This document shows, piece after piece, positions 10,293 to 19,174 of a stretch of DNA of 19,174 bases. Under the pieces are notes generated by a model, which was given only the letters and a program-made list of their open reading frames with translations, had not been told where the DNA came from and ran no database searches. Each line of letters begins with the position of its first letter. Within the stretch, counting starts at the first letter, position 1. The stretch comes from Candidatus Tepidifontimicrobium thermophilum (GTDB taxonomy: Bacteria; Sysuimicrobiota; Sysuimicrobiia; Sysuimicrobiales; Sysuimicrobiaceae), in the NCBI GenBank assembly GCA_031459915.1, contig JAVKHO010000029.1, positions 1-19,174 of the forward strand. The letters run 5' to 3'. The translations under genes were made by a program, and so were the position numbers.

Positions 10293-11279
10293 ATGCCGCT
10301 GACCGCAAGGGACCTGCAGGAGCTGGTGCGGCTGCTGGAGCGGGAGCCGCGGTGGAGGGAAGCCCTCCGGGCCGCCCTGTGGAAGGAGGAGGACCTTGTC
10401 CGGTGGCTACGGGAGCGACTCCCGCGGCTCCTCCAGGAGGAGCCGCGCTTCGGTGCGGAAGTGGTGGGTATCCTCGCGCAGACCCTGAGTCCCCGTTCGG
10501 AGCTGATCCGTGTGCTGGAGGAGATCCGGGCCCTGCGGGAGGACATGGACCGTCGGTTTGCGGCGATGGACGAGCGCTTCCGGGCGCTACAGGAGGACAT
10601 GGATCGCCGGTTTGCGGCGATGGACGAGCGCTTCCGGGCCCTGCGGGAGGACATGGACCGTCGGTTTGAGGCGATGGATGAGCGCTTCCGGGCGCTACAG
10701 GAGGACATGGATCGCCGGTTTGCGGCGATGGACGAGCGCTTCCGGGCGCTACAGGAGGACATGGGGCGCCGGTTTGAGGCGATGGACGAGCGCTTCCGGG
10801 CCCTGCAGGAGGACATGGACCGCCGGTTCCGGGTCCAGGCAGAGATCCTGGACCGCCACGGTCGGGACCTCCGGTACCTTAGGGTGGGGTTCGGCAGCCT
10901 CGGACGTCGCTTCGGGCTAGGGTTCGAGGAAGCGGTCCGGGGCATGGTGGAGGAGTTCGCCGGGGTTGGGCCGCTCAGGGCGGAACGCCTGGTGTTGCGC
11001 GACGAGGCGGGTGAGGTGTTCGGCGTGCCGGGCCAGGTGATCGAGTTCGACGCGTTCGTGCACGATGGGGACCGCTTCCTGGTGGAGGTCAAGGCCTTCG
11101 CGCAGCGGGAGGACGTGCTCCTGTTCCGCCGCAAGGTGGAGTTCGCGGCCCGGCAGCTGGGCCAGACCTTCCGCGCGGTGATGGTGGCCCCCTTTGCCCA
11201 CCGGCGCGCGGTAGAGACCGCGCGGGAGCTGGGGGTTCAGATCCTGGCTGCGGAGGAGCCACCCGAGGGAGACGCGTGA
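10293..11279 (+). CDS. Coiled-coil repeat protein with a C-terminal PD-(D/E)XK nuclease-like domain (DUF3782-like)
   Basis: 18-aa repeats RAL(R/Q)EDMDRRF(A/E)AMDERF, then GRRFGLGFEEAVR and IEFDAFV...FLVEVK (D...ExK motif). Confidence 0.75.
   Translation: MPLTARDLQELVRLLEREPRWREALRAALWKEEDLVRWLRERLPRLLQEEPRFGAEVVGILAQTLSPRSELIRVLEEIRALREDMDRRFAAMDERFRALQEDMDRRFAAMDERFRALREDMDRRFEAMDERFRALQEDMDRRFAAMDERFRALQEDMGRRFEAMDERFRALQEDMDRRFRVQAEILDRHGRDLRYLRVGFGSLGRRFGLGFEEAVRGMVEEFAGVGPLRAERLVLRDEAGEVFGVPGQVIEFDAFVHDGDRFLVEVKAFAQREDVLLFRRKVEFAARQLGQTFRAVMVAPFAHRRAVETARELGVQILAAEEPPEGDA
10527..10829 (+). repeat. In-frame tandem repeat, 54-bp unit, about 5.6 copies
   Basis: Units start at 10527, 10581, 10635, 10689, 10743 and 10797 (partial). 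Unit 1 is CGGGCCCTGCGGGAGGACATGGACCGTCGGTTTGCGGCGATGGACGAGCGCTTC; there are no spacers. Confidence 0.97.
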
Positions 11280-11345: not shown

Positions 11346-11972
11346 TCAGACCGGCTCGGCGTCAGCCCGGGCGAGGGCGTCCAGCAGTGCCAGAAGATGG
11401 TGCAGGCCGGGGCGGGGACTGGCCTGCTGCACCCGCGTGCGGAGGGCGGGGAGCCAGGTTTTCAGGTGCTCGCGGAGGAACGACTGGCGGGCGCGGGCAC
11501 ACACCTCTGCGTCCTCCTCGCGCCCTGCCAGGCGCGCGTACGCTTCCTGAGTGCAGACAAGGGCCAGGAACTCCAGTTCCGCGGCAAGGTGGTCCGGGCG
11601 TTCCCCCCTGGCCTGGAATCCGAAGGCCCGGTAGAAGCCCGCCACGTCGGCGATCACCTGGACGTTGGGGCCACCCAGGGGTTGCGGCCCCGAGGCGTGC
11701 TGGCTCGCTTCGTACGGCGGGACGGTGCCCCGCTCGAAGACCCGTACGTACTCCGCCCGGTAGCCCTCTGGGTCCCCCTGCACGTCCTGGAGGAAGGCCC
11801 GCAGGTGCTCCCGGCCCTCTTCCAGCCCCAAGTACCCCAGGCTGCGTCCCAGCCAGTCCACCGACTCCGGAGGCGCGACTCCGCCTGAAGACGGGCCGAC
11901 GAGCCTGGCGCAGGCGCCGTAGGCGACCGCCTTCGCCAGCAGTCGCTGTGCAAGACCGGAATCTGCCCTCAC
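11346..11972 (-). CDS. TorD/NarJ/DmsD-family maturation chaperone (delta subunit)
   Basis: EYVRVF, VPPYE, ADVAGFYRAFGF, ERPDHLAAELEFL, FLREHL..W. The GTG start overlaps the gamma-subunit stop. Confidence 0.9.
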   Translation of the reverse strand: MRADSGLAQRLLAKAVAYGACARLVGPSSGGVAPPESVDWLGRSLGYLGLEEGREHLRAFLQDVQGDPEGYRAEYVRVFERGTVPPYEASQHASGPQPLGGPNVQVIADVAGFYRAFGFQARGERPDHLAAELEFLALVCTQEAYARLAGREEDAEVCARARQSFLREHLKTWLPALRTRVQQASPRPGLHHLLALLDALARADAEPV

Positions 11973-12871
11973 GGCTCCACCCGCAGCCTGCCGAGCAGGG
12001 TGATGGACTTCCGGGCCCCGCGGTCGCCTGCAATCCCCTGCCACACCGCGAAAGCCACGGCGTACGTCCCGCCCGGCGTGAGGGTGATCTCCCTGGCGTC
12101 CGCGGCGCGCAGGGGCTTGCTCAGGACCACCCGCCACCGCCCGTCCTTCCACACCCCCTTGCCCGTGGCGTTCTGGGTCGGTAGCTGCTCCAAAGTCCCG
12201 GCGCCTTGGGCCACCAGCTTCTCCACGGGGCTTGTCTTGCGGGGCTGGGAGAGGGGATTCCCCGCGTACCAGCCGGGCAGCCACCTGCGGGCCTCCCGCG
12301 GATAGGCTTCCGGAAGCTTCGGCGGGTGCTGGGCGCCCACCAGCGGCGGGTAGAAGTCGAAGGCAAGGTTGGGGAAGGCGGCCTCCACGTCCTGGAACCC
12401 TTGGTCCAGGTCCAGCTGCCAGTCCGCCCGCCAGTGCAGCACCGTCACGGGCATCTTGGGGGTCCCCATCATCCACTCCGTGGCGCCCGCGCCCTGCGGC
12501 AGCAGCATGACCCCGCAACCGTCCTTGAACTCCCGCGTCTTGACCGTACGCCGGTCCGCGCGAGGATCGTCCCACTCCAGGAGGAACGCCACCCGTTCGC
12601 CGTCGTGACAGGACCGCACCCGCACGGACCGGACGGACGGCCGCATCTTCGTGGGCAGCACCATAGCCTGTCCGATGAGGGCTATTTCAGCCGGCGGCAC
12701 GCGCGCCCACACCGCCGCTTCGGGCTCCGCGGGCAGGGGGGAGGGCACCCGCACCGCCCGCACGTCCGGCTGCTGGGACGGCTGGGCTTGCGCCACCGCG
12801 GGCAGTGCCGCCGTCCCCAGGGCCGCGAGTCCCGCAAGGGCCTGGCGTCGGGTGATCTTCTGGGCTGCCAT
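11969..12871 (-). CDS. Heme b gamma subunit (EbdC/NxrC-like, EB_dh DOMON-type domain) with a Tat signal
   Basis: N-terminal TRRQAL, hydrophobic stretch and AQA; FLLEWDD, FKDGCGVM, WMMG (candidate Met ligand), HWRADWQ, VAFAVWQG...RGARKS (candidate Lys ligand). Confidence 0.85.
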   Translation of the reverse strand: MAAQKITRRQALAGLAALGTAALPAVAQAQPSQQPDVRAVRVPSPLPAEPEAAVWARVPPAEIALIGQAMVLPTKMRPSVRSVRVRSCHDGERVAFLLEWDDPRADRRTVKTREFKDGCGVMLLPQGAGATEWMMGTPKMPVTVLHWRADWQLDLDQGFQDVEAAFPNLAFDFYPPLVGAQHPPKLPEAYPREARRWLPGWYAGNPLSQPRKTSPVEKLVAQGAGTLEQLPTQNATGKGVWKDGRWRVVLSKPLRAADAREITLTPGGTYAVAFAVWQGIAGDRGARKSITLLGRLRVEP

Positions 12872-12879
12872 ACCTCACC

Positions 12880-14019
12880 TCACGTGACGTTGTGCCGGTA
12901 GGCCCGGTGCTGCGGGTCGTACGCGGGTCGCACCATGGTGGGCTCCTGGAGCGGCACCCGCACCACCTCCTCCCCGCGCTCGTCGTAGCCGTAGGCTTGA
13001 CCCCGTCTCACCTGGAAGCGGTGCACGATGCGGTCCGTGGACACCGCCAGCAGCAGCACGCCCAGGAGCTCGTCGTCCTTGCCCTCCATGGCCCGCCGGT
13101 ACGCGGCGACGGCGGGCTCCACCCCGGGCCCGAAGAGCATCTGCAGGAAGCGTACGTTTCCTACGTGCACGGGCGGGATGTAGTAGACGTTGGCCTCCAG
13201 ACCCAACTGCGGCAGCAGGGGCAGGGCCACCTTCCGCACGTGGACGAGGAAGTCCACCGGGTTGTCCGCCCTCGCCCGGTCCGGGGTGCTCACGAACCCG
13301 AAGGTGCGGATCTTGCCGATGCAGTTTCGCATGCAGCGGGGCTGGATCCCGCGCTCCACCGCGGGGAAGCACAGCACGCACTTCTCCGAAACCCGGGTGG
13401 TGTGGTTGTAGAAGACCTTCTTGAACGGGCAGTTCTTCACGCACTCCCGGTACCCCCGGCACCGCTGCTGGTCCAGCAGCACGATGCCGTCCTCCGGCCG
13501 CTTGTAGATGGCCGTCCGCGGGCAGCTGGCCAGGCAGGCGGGGTACGTGCAGTGGTTGCAGATCCGGGGCAGGTAGAAGAACCACGCGTCGTGCGGCAGC
13601 CGCAGGTAGAAGCGCTCCTCCGTGATGGGGACGTTGGTCTCGTCCTCCCCCCGGTTGGGATACGCGTAGTCCAGGTCCTCGGGCAGGTAGCCCACCGCGC
13701 GCTCGCCGCCGGGTGCGGCCTCAAACAGGGTCCGACCCCGGTATACGTTCCCCTCCCACGCCTGAGGCCCCAGCATCTCGAGAACCCGGACGTCCCAGGC
13801 GAGGGGGTAGGAGCCCCAGGGCTTGGTCTCCACGTTGTTCCAGAACATGTACTCCTGCCCTTTGCCGGAGGTCCACGTGGTCTTGCAGGCCATGGTGCAG
13901 GTCTGGCAGGCGATGCACTTGTTGGTGTCGAACACCGCCGCCGCCTGCCGGTGGGGCCGCCGGCCCTCGAAGGGGTAGTCCATCTCACGGCCGATCTGCC
14001 AGTTGTACACCTTCGGCAT
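12880..14019 (-). CDS. Fe-S beta subunit of a type II DMSO-reductase-family enzyme, NxrB-like
   Basis: MPKVYNWQIGREMDYP...GQEYMFWNNVETKP resembles periplasmic-type NxrB. Four Cys groups: CIACQTCTMAC, CNHCTYPACLASC, CRGYRECVKNC (3Fe-4S type) and CVLC...CMRNC. Confidence 0.92.
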   Translation of the reverse strand: MPKVYNWQIGREMDYPFEGRRPHRQAAAVFDTNKCIACQTCTMACKTTWTSGKGQEYMFWNNVETKPWGSYPLAWDVRVLEMLGPQAWEGNVYRGRTLFEAAPGGERAVGYLPEDLDYAYPNRGEDETNVPITEERFYLRLPHDAWFFYLPRICNHCTYPACLASCPRTAIYKRPEDGIVLLDQQRCRGYRECVKNCPFKKVFYNHTTRVSEKCVLCFPAVERGIQPRCMRNCIGKIRTFGFVSTPDRARADNPVDFLVHVRKVALPLLPQLGLEANVYYIPPVHVGNVRFLQMLFGPGVEPAVAAYRRAMEGKDDELLGVLLLAVSTDRIVHRFQVRRGQAYGYDERGEEVVRVPLQEPTMVRPAYDPQHRAYRHNVT

Positions 14020-14022
14020 GGC

Positions 14023-17000
14023 CTACCTCCGCTTCACGGTGATGAACTGGCCCGCCAGGTACCGGCGCACGGCTTCCGACTCCCGGCCGGGCCGGAACCT
14101 CTGGGCCGCGGGTGCCCACAGGCCCTTGCCGTCCTCGCCGCCGGGCTCGGCCCGCCGGATCCGCACGTAGCTCTCCTTCGGCGCGCCCACGGTGCAGTGG
14201 ACGTCGAGCGCGAACCCGGTGCCCAGCAGCTGGCCGATGGGGTCCTTGCGGACCAGGCTATCGGTCTGCAGGGTGGGCCGCAGCCAGGCACGGGTGACGG
14301 ACTGGTGGCTCCCGTACCGGTAGGCGGCCTGGTAGTTGGTCCTCGGGTTCTTGGCGAGCCCGTCGGGCCGCTTCTCGTGCCCCTCCACGCTGCCGTGGGT
14401 AGCGATGTAGAAGTGGAACCACGCCCGGCCGGTCCCCTTCATGATGCTGGGGTAGTAGCGGGCCCGCACCAGCCACCGGAAGATGCGCCGCTCCTCGGGC
14501 TTGCGCTCGTGCCCCACGAAGGGCCGGTCCTGCGGGTCCGCCTCGCACCACACGTAGTCGCCGTCCGCGATGCCGAGCCGCCTCGCGTCCTCGGGGTTCA
14601 GGTCGATGTACCCCTCACTGACCCACGGCTTGCGGCGGTCGTGACGGTAGAAGTCGCCGAACGGGCCCCAGAACACCACGTCGAGGTCCGTGCTGGCGCC
14701 CGTGGAGTGACACGCGTGTCGGTACTTGGGGGTGATCAGGACGTGCGTGTATCCGAGCTTGCGCAGGGGGTGGCGGCTCGAAGCCACCTCCTCGGGGCTG
14801 CGCACCACGTTGCGGACCTGGCGGACCTCCGTGCGCAGGTCGTCGGGCCGCAGGCCGTAGGCCTCCGGCGGCGCCGGCCGGAGGGCGGGGTGGGGCTTGG
14901 CCACGATCACGTTGGGTTCGTGGTGGGTGCCGTCCACGGGCTCCCGGTGGACCGGCAGGTTCTCCCCGTACTCGATGAACTCGTCCTCCTCCCGGTAGAA
15001 CTCCAGCCGGCCCGTCTTCGTGTACCAGGGTTTGCTCTCCTGGGTCTGCTCCCAGCCCACCACCTTGGGGCTCGTGCGGGTGAGCAGGTACAGCGGGGTG
15101 CCGTTCCGGCAGCTCTCCAGGAGCTGCTGGAAGCTGTAGCCGCGGGTGGTGTTGCCGGCCCGGAAGGCGCGCTCGATGTACACTTCCGGCTTGCCCTCGA
15201 GGACGAAGTGCCAGTAGTCCCGGAAGCGTCGGTCCCCGGTGAGCTCCGCCAGTTTCGCCGCCACGCCGGCCCAGCACTGCAGGTCGTCTCGGGTGTCGAA
15301 GATGCGGGGAAGCGGTGAGGGCGGCCAGGCCTGCAGGAAGGGGTTCGTGACCGACCCGTACACGTCCGGCAGCTTGCGCTCGGCCCAGCTGTCCACCGCG
15401 AACACCACGTCCGCGTACTCGCAGGTGGCGGTCCAGAACCAGTCCGCCACCACCAGCATCTCGATCTTCGGGAGGGTGTTCACGATGACGTTGTGGGCCC
15501 ACTTGGCATTCCCCAGGATGGAGTTCGACAGGGCCCACATGGCTGACTTGGTGGGGGTGGGCATGTGGGTCTTGCCGGTGAACTGCTTGCGGCCCACCCG
15601 CAGGGGCCGGTCGTCGTAGTTGAAGTAGTGGGCTGATTCCCCCTTCACGTAGGCACGGGTGCGGGCGGGCCGGCTGGGGTCCAGCTCTGGATGGAAGGGG
15701 TCCTCGTTGATGTACTGCACGATGCCGGGCAGCAGCGCCAGCCGGTAGTTCCCCGCGTAGCTGCCCACCGTGCCCCCGAAGTGCCCGATGTTGTTCGTCA
15801 GGGCCGCGACCAGGATGATGGCCCGGTCCTTCAGGTCGTTGTTGAAGAAGTGGTTGGGCCCCATTCCGGTGACGAACAGGGTCCTGGTCTTGTTCTGCGC
15901 GATCTGGCGCGCGAGGCTCACCACCGCCTCCGGCGGGGCTCCCGTGACCCGGTGGGTGTTCTCCGGGGTCCACGTGTCCACCAGGTACTGCTTCAGCAGG
16001 TCGAACACCGGGCGTACGGCGACCCGCCTGCCGTCCCGCAGGGTGACCTGGAACTCGCCCTCGAGGGCGGGGTCGAGGCCCGTGGCCGCGAAGTGACGGC
16101 CCACCTGGTCCCGCGTTACCGCCTTCGGCGAGTTGCTGTTCCGGTCCCACACCACGAAGTCGTCCCACTCCTCCCGCAGGGCCCGGGGGACCAACTGGGC
16201 GTCCTGTTCCGCCGGAGGAGGGACGGGCTGGCCCGGCTCCAGGACCCGGGTGGCGTTCCGCAGGGGCGCGGGCCTGTAGTTCGGGAACACGTCCCGGGCG
16301 CGCAGCTCCTTGAGGGTGTCCATGCGCACCAGCAGGGGCAGGTCGGTGAACTGCTTGACGAAGGCTTCGTCATAGAGCCGTTCCCGAACGAGGACGTGGG
16401 CCAGGCCCAAGGCCAAGGCTGCGTCCGTCCCCGGCCGGATGACGATCACCTCGTCCGCCTTGGAGCTGGTGGACTGGTACTCCGGGGCGATGGTCACCAC
16501 CCGCGCGCCGTGCAGCTTGGCTTCTGTGAGCCAGTGGCCGTCCGGCATCTTGGTGGCGATCCAGTTCTTGCCCCACAGGGTGATGAGGCGCGCGTTCTCC
16601 GCGGTGTACAGGTCGAAGTCCAAGGTCTGCTGGCCGGTGACCATGGGGTGGCCCGGAGGCAGGTCCGTGTGCCAGGAGTAGCTGTCCCAGTGCCGGCCGC
16701 CTTTCGCCTCCTCGGGCTCCACCCTGCGCACGTGGGCGTCCAGCAGGGCCATCATGTTGGCCATGCGGTAGAGCCCCCCGACCCGGAACGGCGCGATGAA
16801 GGGCATCCCGCCGCGGAACTTGAGGGTGCGGGTGCCAGCTCCCTCCATGGCCTCCACCATGTCGGGGTCGTAGCCCTGACGCAGGAGCCGCCGCTTGCCC
16901 AGTTCTCCGGAGTAGGTCTGTGCGATGTTCACAAGCGCCTTCGCCACGTACGCGAACGCCTCGTCCCAGCTCACCCGGACGAACTCCTCTTTCCCGCGGC

Positions 17001-17511
17001 CTTCGAAGTACCGGGCCGGTGGCCGGCCGGTCTCCGGGTCGCGGGGGAACCCCGCGTCCACCCACTCCTTGAACCCCTTGCGGACCATGGGCCCCTTGAC
17101 GCGGCGGTCGGAGTAGAAGCGGCGGACGTACGCGAGCCCGCTGATGCAGATGCGCGGGTCCCACCGGGCCGAGGCCTGGTTGCCGTACAGGTCCGTGGCC
17201 TTGCCATAGCCGAAGCTGGGGTCCGCGTACACCACGACACCGTTCTTCACGCTGGCGCGGAGCAGGCACCCGTGAGTGTCGTTGGGCGCGCACAGGTAGT
17301 GGAAGGTGAAGTCGGGCGTGTACAGCTCGCGGTAGACCTTCTCCCAGTCGCGGTTGGGGTACCGCTGCAGCGGGTTCAGGCCCGGCTCCAGGGGCTGGAG
17401 CACCGCGAGGCTCAGGAGTTCCTCGGGAAGTTCCAGACCTCCCAGGGCGGTGGCCGCGGCAGGCAGGGCAGCGAGAAACTCGCGGCGGGTCAGGCGGAAA
17501 GTCGGATCCAA
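14023..17511 (-). CDS. Mo-bisPGD catalytic alpha subunit, type II DMSO reductase family, periplasmic NxrA/pNar-like (1162 aa)
   Basis: TTG start after SD GGAGGAGGT; Tat motif TRREFL; NPLQRYPNRDWEKVY; FS0 motif CAPNDTHGC-x39-C; Mo-ligand region SWHTDLPPGHP; WYTKTGRLEFY; TPKYRH. Confidence 0.93.
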   Translation of the reverse strand: MDPTFRLTRREFLAALPAAATALGGLELPEELLSLAVLQPLEPGLNPLQRYPNRDWEKVYRELYTPDFTFHYLCAPNDTHGCLLRASVKNGVVVYADPSFGYGKATDLYGNQASARWDPRICISGLAYVRRFYSDRRVKGPMVRKGFKEWVDAGFPRDPETGRPPARYFEGRGKEEFVRVSWDEAFAYVAKALVNIAQTYSGELGKRRLLRQGYDPDMVEAMEGAGTRTLKFRGGMPFIAPFRVGGLYRMANMMALLDAHVRRVEPEEAKGGRHWDSYSWHTDLPPGHPMVTGQQTLDFDLYTAENARLITLWGKNWIATKMPDGHWLTEAKLHGARVVTIAPEYQSTSSKADEVIVIRPGTDAALALGLAHVLVRERLYDEAFVKQFTDLPLLVRMDTLKELRARDVFPNYRPAPLRNATRVLEPGQPVPPPAEQDAQLVPRALREEWDDFVVWDRNSNSPKAVTRDQVGRHFAATGLDPALEGEFQVTLRDGRRVAVRPVFDLLKQYLVDTWTPENTHRVTGAPPEAVVSLARQIAQNKTRTLFVTGMGPNHFFNNDLKDRAIILVAALTNNIGHFGGTVGSYAGNYRLALLPGIVQYINEDPFHPELDPSRPARTRAYVKGESAHYFNYDDRPLRVGRKQFTGKTHMPTPTKSAMWALSNSILGNAKWAHNVIVNTLPKIEMLVVADWFWTATCEYADVVFAVDSWAERKLPDVYGSVTNPFLQAWPPSPLPRIFDTRDDLQCWAGVAAKLAELTGDRRFRDYWHFVLEGKPEVYIERAFRAGNTTRGYSFQQLLESCRNGTPLYLLTRTSPKVVGWEQTQESKPWYTKTGRLEFYREEDEFIEYGENLPVHREPVDGTHHEPNVIVAKPHPALRPAPPEAYGLRPDDLRTEVRQVRNVVRSPEEVASSRHPLRKLGYTHVLITPKYRHACHSTGASTDLDVVFWGPFGDFYRHDRRKPWVSEGYIDLNPEDARRLGIADGDYVWCEADPQDRPFVGHERKPEERRIFRWLVRARYYPSIMKGTGRAWFHFYIATHGSVEGHEKRPDGLAKNPRTNYQAAYRYGSHQSVTRAWLRPTLQTDSLVRKDPIGQLLGTGFALDVHCTVGAPKESYVRIRRAEPGGEDGKGLWAPAAQRFRPGRESEAVRRYLAGQFITVKRR

Positions 17512-17537
17512 GCGATCCACCTCCTCCCAGTAGCCCG

Positions 17538-17583
17538 AAAAACGCGACGGGCAGCGCGCCCGCGCCGTGCGGGTGCGCTGCCC
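17538..17583 (-). terminator. Terminator-like hairpin just upstream of the alpha-subunit RBS
   Basis: The minus strand reads GGGCAGCGCACCCGC-ACGGC-GCGGGCGCGCTGCCC (15-bp stem, one mismatch) followed by GTCGCGTTTTT. Confidence 0.6.
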
Positions 17584-17708
17584 TCTTGGGTCAGGCGGAC
17601 CCTTCAGGTCCCCGATGTCTACTGGTAAGCGCAGAACAGGCGGGCGCCAATCGGGCGGGCAACCGATGACCTCGGTCCAGAGGCCGGACGTTCCGGAGGC
17701 GTTGCGTT

Positions 17709-18809
17709 TCAGAGGACGCCCCGCGCGACCAGGGAGGAGGCGGCGCGGAGTCCCGTCCGGGCACCTGCGTACAGTCCTGCGGCGTACAGCCAGCCCTCCA
17801 CCCGCAGGGTGGCCACGGTGCTCCAGAAGCCGGAGACGTTGCAGCCCACCGCCACCCACACCGCCACGCCCATCACAACGCCCCCCGCAAACCCCACGGC
17901 GGCGTCCCGCAGCCGCCAGGGACGGAAGCCCACGAACTCTCCGCTCAACAGGGCCGCGGTGAGGCTGCCGAGGATCAGGCCCGCGTCCAGGTGGAAGCCG
18001 GGGTCCAGGGCGGGCAGGCGGGCTCCCCAGAACTGGGTCCAGCTCAACCGGTCGGTAGTAGCCCCCACAGCCTGCGCGGCCCACAGGGAGAACCGGGCGA
18101 GAGGCAGCTGGATCCCCAGGGCGGAGTGGTAGGCGAACTGCACGGTGAACAGGACAGCGACAACTACGCCTCCCAGCCAGGCCGGCCACGGAGCGCGCAG
18201 CAGGGAAGGTGCTGGAGCTGCAGCCGCCAGGACAGGTTCAGGGTGCGGGGGCCTGAGGCGCCAGTACAGGACCGCCAGCGCCGCGAGGTTCAGGGCGGTG
18301 GCGGGCCACAGGCCGACTGCCTCCGGCAGGGAAAACCGCAGGCCCCAGTTCATCAGGCGTTCTGTGACCGGCCAGGCGTAGGCGGCTCCCAGTCCGTTCC
18401 CCACGAGGATGCCCAGGAAGGCGGCCAGGGACTTGGGCTGGCCGGTACCTAAGCGGTACAGGGTGCCGGTCATGCACCCACCCGCAAAGGGCATGGCGAA
18501 CCCGAACAGGAAGGACCCCAGCAGGGTGTGCCACCCGAAGGGCAGGCGGGGCGGGCGGTTCCACCCCAGCTCCACCACCGCCGCGGAGCCCACGCTGGCC
18601 AAGGCCAGCCCCAACAGGATGCCCCGCAGCAGGACCCGGTTGCCGTAAAAAGCCGAGGCGAAGCACAGGCGGCTGCGCTGGAACGCAAACCCGTACGCCA
18701 GGCCCAACACCAGCAGCACCGCCGCGGAGCGCAGCTGCAGGCTCCACGCCACCGCGGCGGTGGCGGCGGAGGTCAGCAGGACCGCCAGGGCTACCGCCGG
18801 CTGGCTCAC
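17709..18809 (-). CDS. YeeE/YedE-family membrane protein (thiosulfate/sulfur-compound transporter family)
   Basis: Multi-TM protein with the three family Cys motifs GFAFQRSRLCFASAF, FAGGCMTGTLYRLG and AVGCNVSGF. GTG start overlaps the upstream stop. Confidence 0.88.
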   Translation of the reverse strand: MSQPAVALAVLLTSAATAAVAWSLQLRSAAVLLVLGLAYGFAFQRSRLCFASAFYGNRVLLRGILLGLALASVGSAAVVELGWNRPPRLPFGWHTLLGSFLFGFAMPFAGGCMTGTLYRLGTGQPKSLAAFLGILVGNGLGAAYAWPVTERLMNWGLRFSLPEAVGLWPATALNLAALAVLYWRLRPPHPEPVLAAAAPAPSLLRAPWPAWLGGVVVAVLFTVQFAYHSALGIQLPLARFSLWAAQAVGATTDRLSWTQFWGARLPALDPGFHLDAGLILGSLTAALLSGEFVGFRPWRLRDAAVGFAGGVVMGVAVWVAVGCNVSGFWSTVATLRVEGWLYAAGLYAGARTGLRAASSLVARGVL

Positions 18810-19174
18810 TCGACGATGAACTCCCCGAACATGGTGGCGTCGTGGCCGGGCACCGTGCACACGTAGCGGTACCGGCCGGGTTGCGTGGGGGTGAAGACCA
18901 TGGTCTCCCGCTGGCCGGGCCCCAGCAGCCCGGTGGTGGCCCGTGGGAACACGGGCTCAAGATAGGGAGGCCGCTCATCCGCTCCCACGATACGGATGTC
19001 ATGTGCCACCTGGTCGCGGTTCTCGAAGGTCAGATACACCCGCTGGCCCGCCCGCACCCGCAGCACGGGTCCTGGCACGCGGCCACCGAACTTGTTACCA
19101 CGTTCTGCCGTCATCTGCAGCTGGACGGGCTGCCGTGCGGGCTGCGCCGGCGCGACACGATCCCGCGACCGGGA
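18806..19174 (-). CDS. Cupredoxin (type 1 blue copper) domain protein, 5' end outside the window
   Basis: VPGPVLRVRAGQRVYLTFEN, AHD (His ligand), YVCTVPGHDATMFG (C-x4-H-x3-M). The frame is open without a stop up to 19174. Confidence 0.85.
   Translation of the reverse strand, partial: SRSRDRVAPAQPARQPVQLQMTAERGNKFGGRVPGPVLRVRAGQRVYLTFENRDQVAHDIRIVGADERPPYLEPVFPRATTGLLGPGQRETMVFTPTQPGRYRYVCTVPGHDATMFGEFIVE

What the first reader, a model, noticed from the sequence alone, without database searches (positions are those of the whole stretch)
11346..17511. Complete periplasmic NXR-like molybdoenzyme operon (alpha-beta-gamma-chaperone) in a host that is not an obvious nitrifier
Seen: four contiguous genes encoding a Tat-signalled 1162-aa alpha subunit with a C-x3-D-x3-C FS0 motif, a beta subunit starting MPKVYNWQIGREM, a heme b subunit and a TorD-type chaperone. 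Established: the Asp-containing FS0 motif (CxPNDTHxC) and this beta N-terminus characterise Nitrospira/Nitrospina/anammox NXR and relatives, whereas NarG, Ebd, Ser, Clr and Pcr have His-first FS0 motifs. Inference: the Mo-ligand loop here (WHTDLPPGHP) differs from the Nitrospira-type WHGDQ as I recall it, so this is probably a sister clade, possibly the Nitrotoga-like/uncharacterised group. The neighbouring genes suggest a high-GC thermophilic Terrabacteria-type host, so this could be an undescribed nitrite oxidiser or a novel periplasmic nitrate/oxyanion reductase. Reaction direction cannot be read from sequence.
Basis: partly seen in the sequence, partly recalled or inferred. Interest (0 to 1): 0.85.

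Follow-up and report, generated by a model that had tools for sequence, protein, structure and literature searches.

The report
Hot-spring bacterium's outward-facing nitrate reductase
These four genes encode a molybdenum enzyme of an already known nitrate/nitrite-converting group, predicted to work outside the cytoplasm; they share an upstream DNA motif with the cell's predicted nitrite- and nitric-oxide-reducing genes, so this uncultured hot-spring bacterium likely uses the enzyme to breathe nitrate rather than to oxidise nitrite.

Summary
The operon is real: alpha (14023-17511), beta, Met/Lys heme-b gamma and TorD-type chaperone. All Kuenenia NXR active-site residues are kept. The alpha subunit falls in the known sister clade of periplasmic NXRs, with Hydrogenobacter thermophilus Nar (54%). 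It is 75% identical to the protein named NxrA of Ca. Nitrotheca patiens. The host is inferred to be Sysuimicrobiota, family Sysuimicrobiaceae, for which nxrA/narG and denitrification are already in print (PMC11604079). Context favours nitrate reduction. The genome has NirK, an eNOR-type NO reductase and clade II NosZ, and no other nitrate reductase was found. eNOR lies 5-7 kb upstream in 5 of 7 relatives. An ATCGG-N8-CCGAT palindrome occurs 6 times in the genome, always between genes, including before this operon, eNOR and nirK. Operon and eNOR are both transcribed in one hot-spring metatranscriptome. Nitrite oxidation is not excluded: the closest named relative is a putative nitrite oxidiser's NXR, and the palindrome also heads an O2 reductase. 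The scan noted this enzyme type before in other genomes. Verdict: new member of a known kind.

The parts
14023..17511 (-). Alpha (catalytic Mo-bisPGD) subunit, 1162 aa; Tat motif; 3Cys/1Asp FS0 (C74, D78, C82, C122); substrate Asn77; Mo ligand Asp283
   Evidence: residue roles by alignment to 7B04 and PMC8387239
12880..14019 (-). Beta subunit, 379 aa, four Fe-S motifs (residues 35, 154, 187, 214), no signal peptide
11969..12871 (-). Gamma subunit, 300 aa, EbdC/NxrC type; own twin-arginine signal; heme b ligands Met135/Lys288 (align to Kuenenia Met155/Lys305); no hydrophobic stretch beyond the signal, so predicted soluble
11346..11972 (-). TorD/NarJ-type chaperone, 208 aa
17650..17667 (.). Palindrome ATCGG-N8-CCGAT about 140 bases upstream of alpha; candidate operator shared with eNOR, nirK and an A2-type oxidase operon
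17547..17583 (-). Conserved GC-rich hairpin followed by a T run in the alpha leader (terminator-like, possible attenuator); no Rfam match
17709..18809 (-). YeeE/YedE sulfur-transporter-family protein; part of a sulfur module between eNOR and the operon; nearly silent in run X6
18806..19174 (-). Type-1 copper cupredoxin (C-x4-H-x3-M), cut at the contig end; candidate periplasmic electron carrier

Best explanation
The operon encodes an alpha-beta-gamma molybdoenzyme of the Hydrogenobacter/Nitrotoga/Nitrotheca branch, predicted to be exported to the periplasm, that likely serves as the respiratory nitrate reductase starting low-oxygen denitrification in this hot-spring Sysuimicrobiota bacterium. 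Shown: genes, cofactor ligands, clade, partner genes, shared palindrome and transcription. Inferred: the chaperone matures alpha, and Tat exports alpha-beta and gamma. Electrons from quinol would pass via the Rieske/cytochrome b complex and a cupredoxin or cytochrome c to gamma heme b, then FS4-FS1, FS0 and Mo, reducing nitrate to nitrite. The Ser-type NirK, eNOR and clade II NosZ would then take nitrite to N2. One regulator binding ATCGG-N8-CCGAT would switch the set on when oxygen is low. The enzyme is probably reversible in vitro, like other NXRs.
For: (1) Clade: 100/100 support for a 22-row group with H. thermophilus P0122, Hydrogenobaculum and Natronococcus. The H. thermophilus enzyme is an assayed periplasmic NAR (PMC6050957). 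(2) The genome has the other three denitrification steps: NirK C1:50777 (548 bits to PDB 6HBE); a heme-copper subunit I with His230-x3-Gln234 in place of Tyr, the eNOR signature (PMC8756737); NosZ at 839 bits against a cut-off of 625. The five other molybdoenzyme stretches found with the alpha query (four genes) match Ttr, Phs or Fdh models best, not NarG or NapA. (3) eNOR lies on the same contig and strand 5-7 kb upstream in 5 of 7 family relatives holding the operon or part of it (G001, G006, G010 intact; G008 truncated; G011 with an alpha fragment). (4) The palindrome has 6 hits in 2.6 Mb, 6 of 6 intergenic, against 5 hits and 0 intergenic for the 11 other spacer lengths 3-14. It lies before alpha, eNOR and cupredoxin-nirK, with a one-mismatch copy before rrf2-nosZ, and is kept before alpha in 6 of 6 family relatives examined. 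(5) Run X6: operon 16-37x on the sense strand against 0-3.4x for flanking housekeeping genes. On the G001 island, operon 22-49x and eNOR 9-12x, with the genes between at 0-3.5x. (6) No RuBisCO and no acetyl-CoA synthase found in a 96% complete genome.
Against: The closest named protein is NxrA of Ca. Nitrotheca patiens (75%), a putative nitrite oxidiser, and it is much closer than H. thermophilus Nar (54%). The palindrome also heads an A2-type O2 reductase operon, a copper-chaperone operon and a CBS gene, so it may mark low oxygen rather than denitrification as such. It was not found at two qNOR loci of relatives, nor as an exact match at 4 eNOR loci (G004, G012, G017, G018). The eNOR link is family-specific: 0 of 12 loci from other lineages of the subclade had eNOR or NirK hits in their flanks. 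G008 keeps the operon with a truncated eNOR. The join of this contig to the eNOR contig is not in the assembly. Expression rests on one run (X4 14 reads, X5 none) with mixed strains; nirK and nosZ transcription was not examined. Reductive-glycine genes are present, so autotrophy is possible. No dedicated quinol-oxidising subunit is in the operon, so the electron donor is inferred.
Confidence: 0.7

Rival explanations
1. The enzyme works mainly as a nitrite oxidoreductase: the host gains energy from nitrite, passing electrons through cupredoxins or cytochrome c to an A-family O2 reductase, with CO2 fixed by the reductive glycine pathway or with organic carbon.
For: 75% identity to Ca. Nitrotheca NxrA, in a subclade with Caldarchaeum. 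PMC6050957 reports that the only nxr-like genes of a 75 C nitrite-oxidising enrichment metagenome grouped with the Caldiarchaeum protein. The genome has two Tyr-bearing A-family oxidases, one under the same palindrome. A cupredoxin gene lies next to alpha in G041 and G062. FTHFS and GcvP are present.
Against: Full NirK-eNOR-NosZ set with no other nitrate reductase found. eNOR is clustered with the operon and co-transcribed. The operon is single-copy and patchy: 7 of 12 family genomes by the beta search, broken in G009. Nitrotheca's nitrite oxidation is called putative (PMC10470456).
Confidence: 0.12
2. The enzyme is used in both directions in vivo: nitrate reduction when O2 is scarce and nitrite oxidation (energy top-up or nitrite detoxification) when O2 returns.
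For: NXRs are bidirectional, and Kitzinger et al. propose this for nitrate reducers of the clade. The shared palindrome covers both an O2 reductase and N-oxide reductases. eNOR users denitrify under micro-oxic conditions (PMC11214002).
Against: No direct evidence. High-potential carriers were not characterised.
Confidence: 0.13
3. The enzyme reduces another oxyanion (chlorate, perchlorate, selenate) or oxidises a hydrocarbon.
For: Type II DMSO-reductase architecture with an EbdC-like gamma. Sulfur-related genes (YeeE, TusA, sulfide-oxidoreductase-like flavoprotein) lie next door.
Against: 213 bits to the Pcr-type 4YDD and 134 to EbdA against 939 to NxrA. Asn77 is kept where EbdA has Ile. The only chlorite-dismutase-family gene sits beside heme-biosynthesis-like genes, so it is likely coproheme decarboxylase (gene names read from the sequences, no family scan).
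Confidence: 0.05

Closest known systems
NxrA of Ca. Nitrotheca patiens (P0011; Chloroflexota, putative thermophilic nitrite oxidiser, periplasmic NXR per PMC12998223 passage)
   Same: 75% identity over 1157 aa; same CAPNDTHGC and YSWHTDLPPGHP motifs; same 8-row clade at 100/100
   Different: Different phylum. Its gene context could not be fetched and the primary paper (Spieck 2020) is not held. Here the operon sits with eNOR and a shared palindrome.
Periplasmic nitrate reductase of Hydrogenobacter thermophilus (cluster representative P0122; equated with the assayed enzyme by name only)
   Same: 54% identity, CAPNDT FS0 motif, HTD Mo loop, same major clade
   Different: Separate sub-branch (loop FHTDLAPG...QN); described as membrane-bound, whereas this gamma is predicted soluble.
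NXR of Ca. Nitrotoga fabula (PMC6050957)
   Same: Same four-gene layout, Tat alpha, signal-less beta, helix-free heme gamma, Y-4x-D-11x-Q pattern; same sister clade as judged from shared members named in the paper
   Different: Pattern ends QT here, QM in Nitrotoga; gamma has a twin-arginine signal here, Sec there; one copy here, two there. Its sequence was not retrieved.
Kuenenia stuttgartiensis NXR-ABC (PDB 7B04; PMC8387239)
   Same: 3Cys/1Asp FS0, substrate Asn, Mo Asp, Met/Lys heme b
   Different: Sister clade: 939 bits against 1782 for the Kuenenia-type copy of relative G036; WHTD versus WHGD; AU test rejects grouping with that type, p=3e-5.
NxrA/NarG and denitrification in Sysuimicrobiaceae (PMC11604079)
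   Same: Reports nxrA/narG in four of five families, a separate horizontal origin for the Sysuimicrobiaceae enzyme, and denitrification in that family
   Different: It relies on norB (qNOR found here in G003 and G010, likely G006). Its main text does not mention eNOR, and the passages read give no direction for this enzyme and no shared motif. Its supplements could not be read.

Membership tests
Nitrotoga/Hydrogenobacter sister clade of periplasmic NXR/NAR | Alpha groups with H. thermophilus Nar and Caldarchaeum, sister to Nitrospira/anammox NXR | tested here: met
   (30 rows chosen from the 70; LG+G4; 100/100)
Nitrotoga/Hydrogenobacter sister clade of periplasmic NXR/NAR | Groups with Nitrotoga NxrA itself | not tested
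   No protein named Nitrotoga in three homologue lists; no QM-type motif among stored proteins
Nitrotoga/Hydrogenobacter sister clade of periplasmic NXR/NAR | 3Cys/1Asp FS0, substrate Asn, Mo-ligand Asp in Y-4x-D-11x-Q | tested here: met
   C74/N77/D78/C82/C122, D283
Nitrotoga/Hydrogenobacter sister clade of periplasmic NXR/NAR | Tat alpha, signal-less beta, heme gamma, chaperone in one operon; a periplasm exists | tested here: met
   Omp85 over cut-off
Nitrotoga/Hydrogenobacter sister clade of periplasmic NXR/NAR | Nitrate/nitrite interconversion activity | not testable with these tools
   needs assay
Nitrospira/Nitrospina/anammox NXR | Alpha inside that clade; WHGDQ loop | tested here: not met
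   AU p=3e-5 using four Kuenenia-type proxies, L088, L089, L091, L092; WHTDL here
NarGHI and haloarchaeal pNar | His-first FS0; NarG model cut-off | tested here: not met
   HxVNCTGSC in L116-L118 versus CAPNDTHGC; TIGR01580 172 versus 1084 bits
Ebd/Ser/Clr/Pcr | Alpha similarity and cut-offs; chlorite dismutase partner for Clr/Pcr | tested here: not met
   no Ser or Clr reference sequence was in the tree except L119
Chemolithoautotrophic nitrite-oxidising bacteria | CO2-fixation pathway | tested here: inconclusive
   RuBisCO and ACS not found; citrate-lyase search rang in no control; FTHFS and GcvP present
Chemolithoautotrophic nitrite-oxidising bacteria | Growth on nitrite | not testable with these tools
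   uncultured
eNOR (partner enzyme, contig C4) | Gln in place of the cross-linked Tyr; CuA-type subunit II upstream | tested here: met
   GHPSQQIN, H230/Q234; subunit II; criterion from PMC8756737; no HCO tree built

The most novel reading that the evidence does not exclude
Sysuimicrobiaceae are overlooked thermophilic nitrite oxidisers or two-way nitrogen cyclers. One Nitrotheca-type enzyme, wired mainly by copper carriers, feeds nitrite electrons to an A2 oxidase when O2 is present and starts eNOR-based denitrification when it is not. Both modes run under one undescribed ATCGG-N8-CCGAT regulon, with CO2 fixed by the reductive glycine pathway. This would add a phylum to the nitrite oxidisers and a candidate for nitrite oxidation near 70 C.
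Probability: 0.2. Interest if true: 0.75.

Novelty: new member of a known kind. Interest (0 to 1): 0.4.

Why it matters
Enzymes of this clade are routinely annotated 'narG/nxrA' and used to nominate new nitrite oxidisers, though the direction is known for very few. This case gives three context clues for reduction in a close relative (75%) of a putative nitrite oxidiser's NXR. That is a caution for such nominations, including Ca. Nitrotheca. It also completes a nitrate-to-N2 pathway, through eNOR, in a genome without norB. The palindrome offers a cheap marker for testing direction in hot-spring transcriptomes. The enzyme type itself is known.

Tried and rejected
Cluster-member names for housekeeping proteins could not be obtained, so the host was placed indirectly: the phylum search gave 94 genomes in one order and seven families, matching '1 class, 1 order, 7 families' (PMC11962464). 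The three genera, flagellar genes, qNOR and sporadic RuBisCO (1 of 12) match Sysuimicrobiaceae. A 16S gene was found but no named reference was available. The primary Nitrotheca paper is not held. The supplements of PMC11604079 were unreadable and may already show this protein, eNOR or its expression. My first reading of the C4 oxidase as a ba3 O2 reductase (which would have favoured nitrite oxidation) was rejected: it has Gln for Tyr. The GTG at 17520 was rejected as start because it lies inside the Shine-Dalgarno sequence. FNR/Crp consensus boxes (recalled patterns) were not found at these genes. Rfam gave nothing near cut-off in the leader. No sigma-70 promoter match. A paper search for the palindrome found 0 papers. 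Runs X1-X3 are contigs and cannot show expression level; X5 had no reads. No structure prediction was run, since full-length alignment to 7B04 answered the residue questions.
Full report
Observation. The four genes are present as described on the minus strand: alpha 14023-17511 (1162 aa), beta 12880-14019 (379 aa), gamma 11969-12871 (300 aa) and chaperone 11346-11972 (208 aa). They match the type II DMSO-reductase alpha, beta, gamma and chaperone models best, each below its cut-off. Alpha aligns end to end with Kuenenia NxrA (7B04, 939 bits), far above Pcr-type 4YDD (213), NarG (about 141) and EbdA (134). The Kuenenia residues C67, N70, D71, C75, C115 and D275 (PMC8387239, passages) map to C74, N77, D78, C82, C122 and D283. 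Gamma keeps the heme b ligands (Met135, Lys288 against Met155, Lys305), has its own twin-arginine signal and no further hydrophobic stretch. An Omp85 gene indicates an outer membrane. The complex is therefore predicted to be soluble and periplasmic.

Placement. A 70-row FastTree and a 30-row IQ-TREE subset put alpha in a 100/100 clade with H. thermophilus (P0122), Hydrogenobaculum, Natronococcus and Caldarchaeum. This clade is sister to the Kuenenia-type enzymes, represented by copies from other families of the host's order; one of them (L088) scores 1782 bits to 7B04. Forcing alpha with those is rejected (p-AU 3e-5). This is the sister clade described by Kitzinger et al., which holds the Nitrotoga NXR and the assayed periplasmic NAR of H. 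thermophilus (PMC6050957, section 9). Nitrotoga's own sequence was not retrieved. Inside the clade, alpha sits with Dehalococcoidia, Acidimicrobiia and P0011, named NxrA of Ca. Nitrotheca patiens (75% identity, against 54% to P0122). The group is large: 2898 of 7997 scored proteins passed E 1e-50.

Host. The genome is 2.6 Mb, about 71% GC and 96% complete. Its phylum holds 94 genomes in one order and seven families, as reported for CSP1-3/Sysuimicrobiota (PMC11962464, passages). A 90% identical alpha is labelled Armatimonadetes, which I recall as the older label for this group. The family has three genera, flagellar genes (read from sequences), qNOR in some members and RuBisCO in 1 of 12. That fits Sysuimicrobiaceae (PMC11604079, passages and sections 7 and 12). 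This assignment is an inference. That paper already reports nxrA/narG in four families, a separate horizontal origin in Sysuimicrobiaceae, and denitrification in that family. Its supplements were unreadable. The close type of operon was found in 7 of 12 family genomes by the beta query (G000 included) and in 2 of 34 genomes of family f5; G011 adds an alpha fragment. The copy in G009 is broken.

Direction, clue 1: partner genes. The genome encodes a three-domain copper nitrite reductase (548 bits to 6HBE; the label 'Thermus scotoductus Ser-type' is recalled and also given in note e1-1156154). It has a clade II NosZ above cut-off and a heme-copper enzyme on contig C4 whose active-site helix reads GHPSQQIN. 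Gln for Tyr is the eNOR signature (PMC8756737, passages), and the Rhodothermus eNOR reduces NO and not O2 (PMC11214002, passages). No qNOR was among the five COX1-family matches. The other molybdoenzymes found with the alpha query match Ttr, Phs or Fdh models. So this operon is the only candidate found for the nitrate step of an otherwise complete pathway.

Clue 2: linkage. In G001, G006 and G010 one same-strand island runs: eNOR small subunit, II, I; a COX1-like 421-aa protein; TusA-like; a 260-aa unknown; a Tat flavoprotein of the sulfide-oxidoreductase type; cupredoxin; YeeE; then alpha to chaperone. G008 has it with a truncated eNOR, and G011 has eNOR 7 kb before an alpha fragment. G002's contig is too short to tell and G009 has no eNOR match, giving 5 of 7. 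In G000 the island is split between the ends of C4 and the window. The sulfur module seems to be duplicated (C10 and C9 ends), so the join is inferred, not assembled. In other families eNOR lies beside nirK (G012) or near nosZ (G018). Against: 0 of 12 loci from other lineages of the subclade had eNOR or NirK hits nearby.

Clue 3: a shared palindrome. ATCGG-N8-CCGAT lies at 17650-17667 (1 match; 0.01 expected). Genome-wide it occurs 6 times, all intergenic in a genome about 93% coding by my crude gene calls; the 11 other spacer lengths give 5 hits, none intergenic. The six targets are alpha, eNOR, cupredoxin-nirK, an A2-type oxidase operon, a copper-chaperone-like operon and a CBS gene. A one-mismatch copy precedes rrf2-nosZ, exact in G009. 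It is kept before alpha in 6 of 6 family relatives examined, and was not found in 2 of 2 f5 loci or in 32 loci of other lineages (32 of the 77 were examined). It was not found at two qNOR loci, nor exactly at four eNOR loci. One paper search for it found nothing. The regulator is unknown.

Clue 4: transcription. In stranded hot-spring run X6 (1231 reads laid, 630 of them at least 99% alike) the four genes are covered 16-37x on the sense strand. Flanking housekeeping genes are at 0-3.4x and YeeE/cupredoxin at 0.1-1.8x, which implies a promoter in the 17512-17708 gap. Laid on the G001 island at 85% likeness, the operon is at 22-49x, eNOR at 9-12x and the genes between at 0-3.5x. X4 gave 14 reads and X5 none.

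Mechanism. Most likely (0.7) this is a periplasmic respiratory nitrate reductase in a low-oxygen regulon. Electrons would reach gamma heme b from the Rieske/cytochrome b complex on C31 through a cupredoxin or cytochrome c; only seven or so heme-c-type proteins were seen among 15 CxxCH hits. They would pass along the Fe-S chain to Mo. The electron route is inferred. The adjacent cupredoxin is nearly silent in X6, so the one before nirK is the better candidate. Rivals are use in both directions (0.13), mainly nitrite oxidation (0.12) and another substrate (0.05). The case for oxidation is the closeness to Nitrotheca NxrA (called putative in PMC10470456, passage; periplasmic per PMC12998223, passage), the Caldiarchaeum-related enzyme from a 75 C nitrite-oxidising enrichment, the oxidase in the same regulon, and reductive-glycine genes. 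RuBisCO and ACS were not found; the citrate-lyase search was uninformative.

Novelty. The enzyme clade, the operon layout and its presence in this phylum are known, and the scan has noted the same enzyme type in at least seven other genomes. Not found in the texts searched are the eNOR link, the palindrome regulon and the resulting argument for direction. New member of a known kind; interest 0.4.

Noticed in passing
window 17547-17583 (-): Conserved long hairpin plus T run between the palindrome and the alpha start; 7 of 21 predicted pairs in the leader show two-sided changes across 7 genomes. Possible attenuator or RNA-stability element; no Rfam match.
   Followed up: partly
window 17611-17627 and the leaders of relatives: A second short inverted repeat, GGAC-N7-GTCC, is kept before alpha in relatives and also seen before nirK and before eNOR of G010; possible second operator.
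   Followed up: no
window 17709-19174; G000 C4, C9, C10 ends; L137:9339-13145: A sulfur module (TusA-like, 260-aa unknown without NCBIfam match, Tat sulfide-oxidoreductase-like flavoprotein, cupredoxin, YeeE) seems to occur twice in G000, the second copy beside a Phs/Dms-like molybdoenzyme; the cupredoxin may replace the usual cytochrome c partner of the flavoprotein.
   Followed up: partly
G000:C4:87356-88621 (L104): A 421-aa COX1-like membrane protein directly behind eNOR subunit I, conserved in the island; candidate heme-modifying or assembly factor; no NCBIfam match.
   Followed up: no
L138 (G009:C12:52700-55600): In a 100% complete relative the operon is frame-broken, lacks gamma and lies in another neighbourhood, yet keeps the palindrome; eNOR was not found there.
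   Followed up: partly
L135:16306-17619 (G008): The eNOR subunit I remnant is fused in frame to the upstream HMG-CoA-lyase-like gene after a deletion.
   Followed up: no
L087 versus L092 (G041, G026; same genus g15): One genus of family f5 carries either this enzyme type or the Kuenenia type in different species, a natural pair for comparing the two clades.
   Followed up: no
window 10293-11279 (+): DUF3782/PD-(D/E)XK nuclease-family gene with 18-residue coiled-coil repeats whose copy number differs from G001 (328 versus 276 aa).
   Followed up: no
G000:C3:5560-6952: A cupredoxin plus two-domain multicopper protein behind a variant palindrome (ATCAG-N8-CTGAT); a 48% identical homologue lies near the operon in archaeal locus L015.
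   Followed up: no
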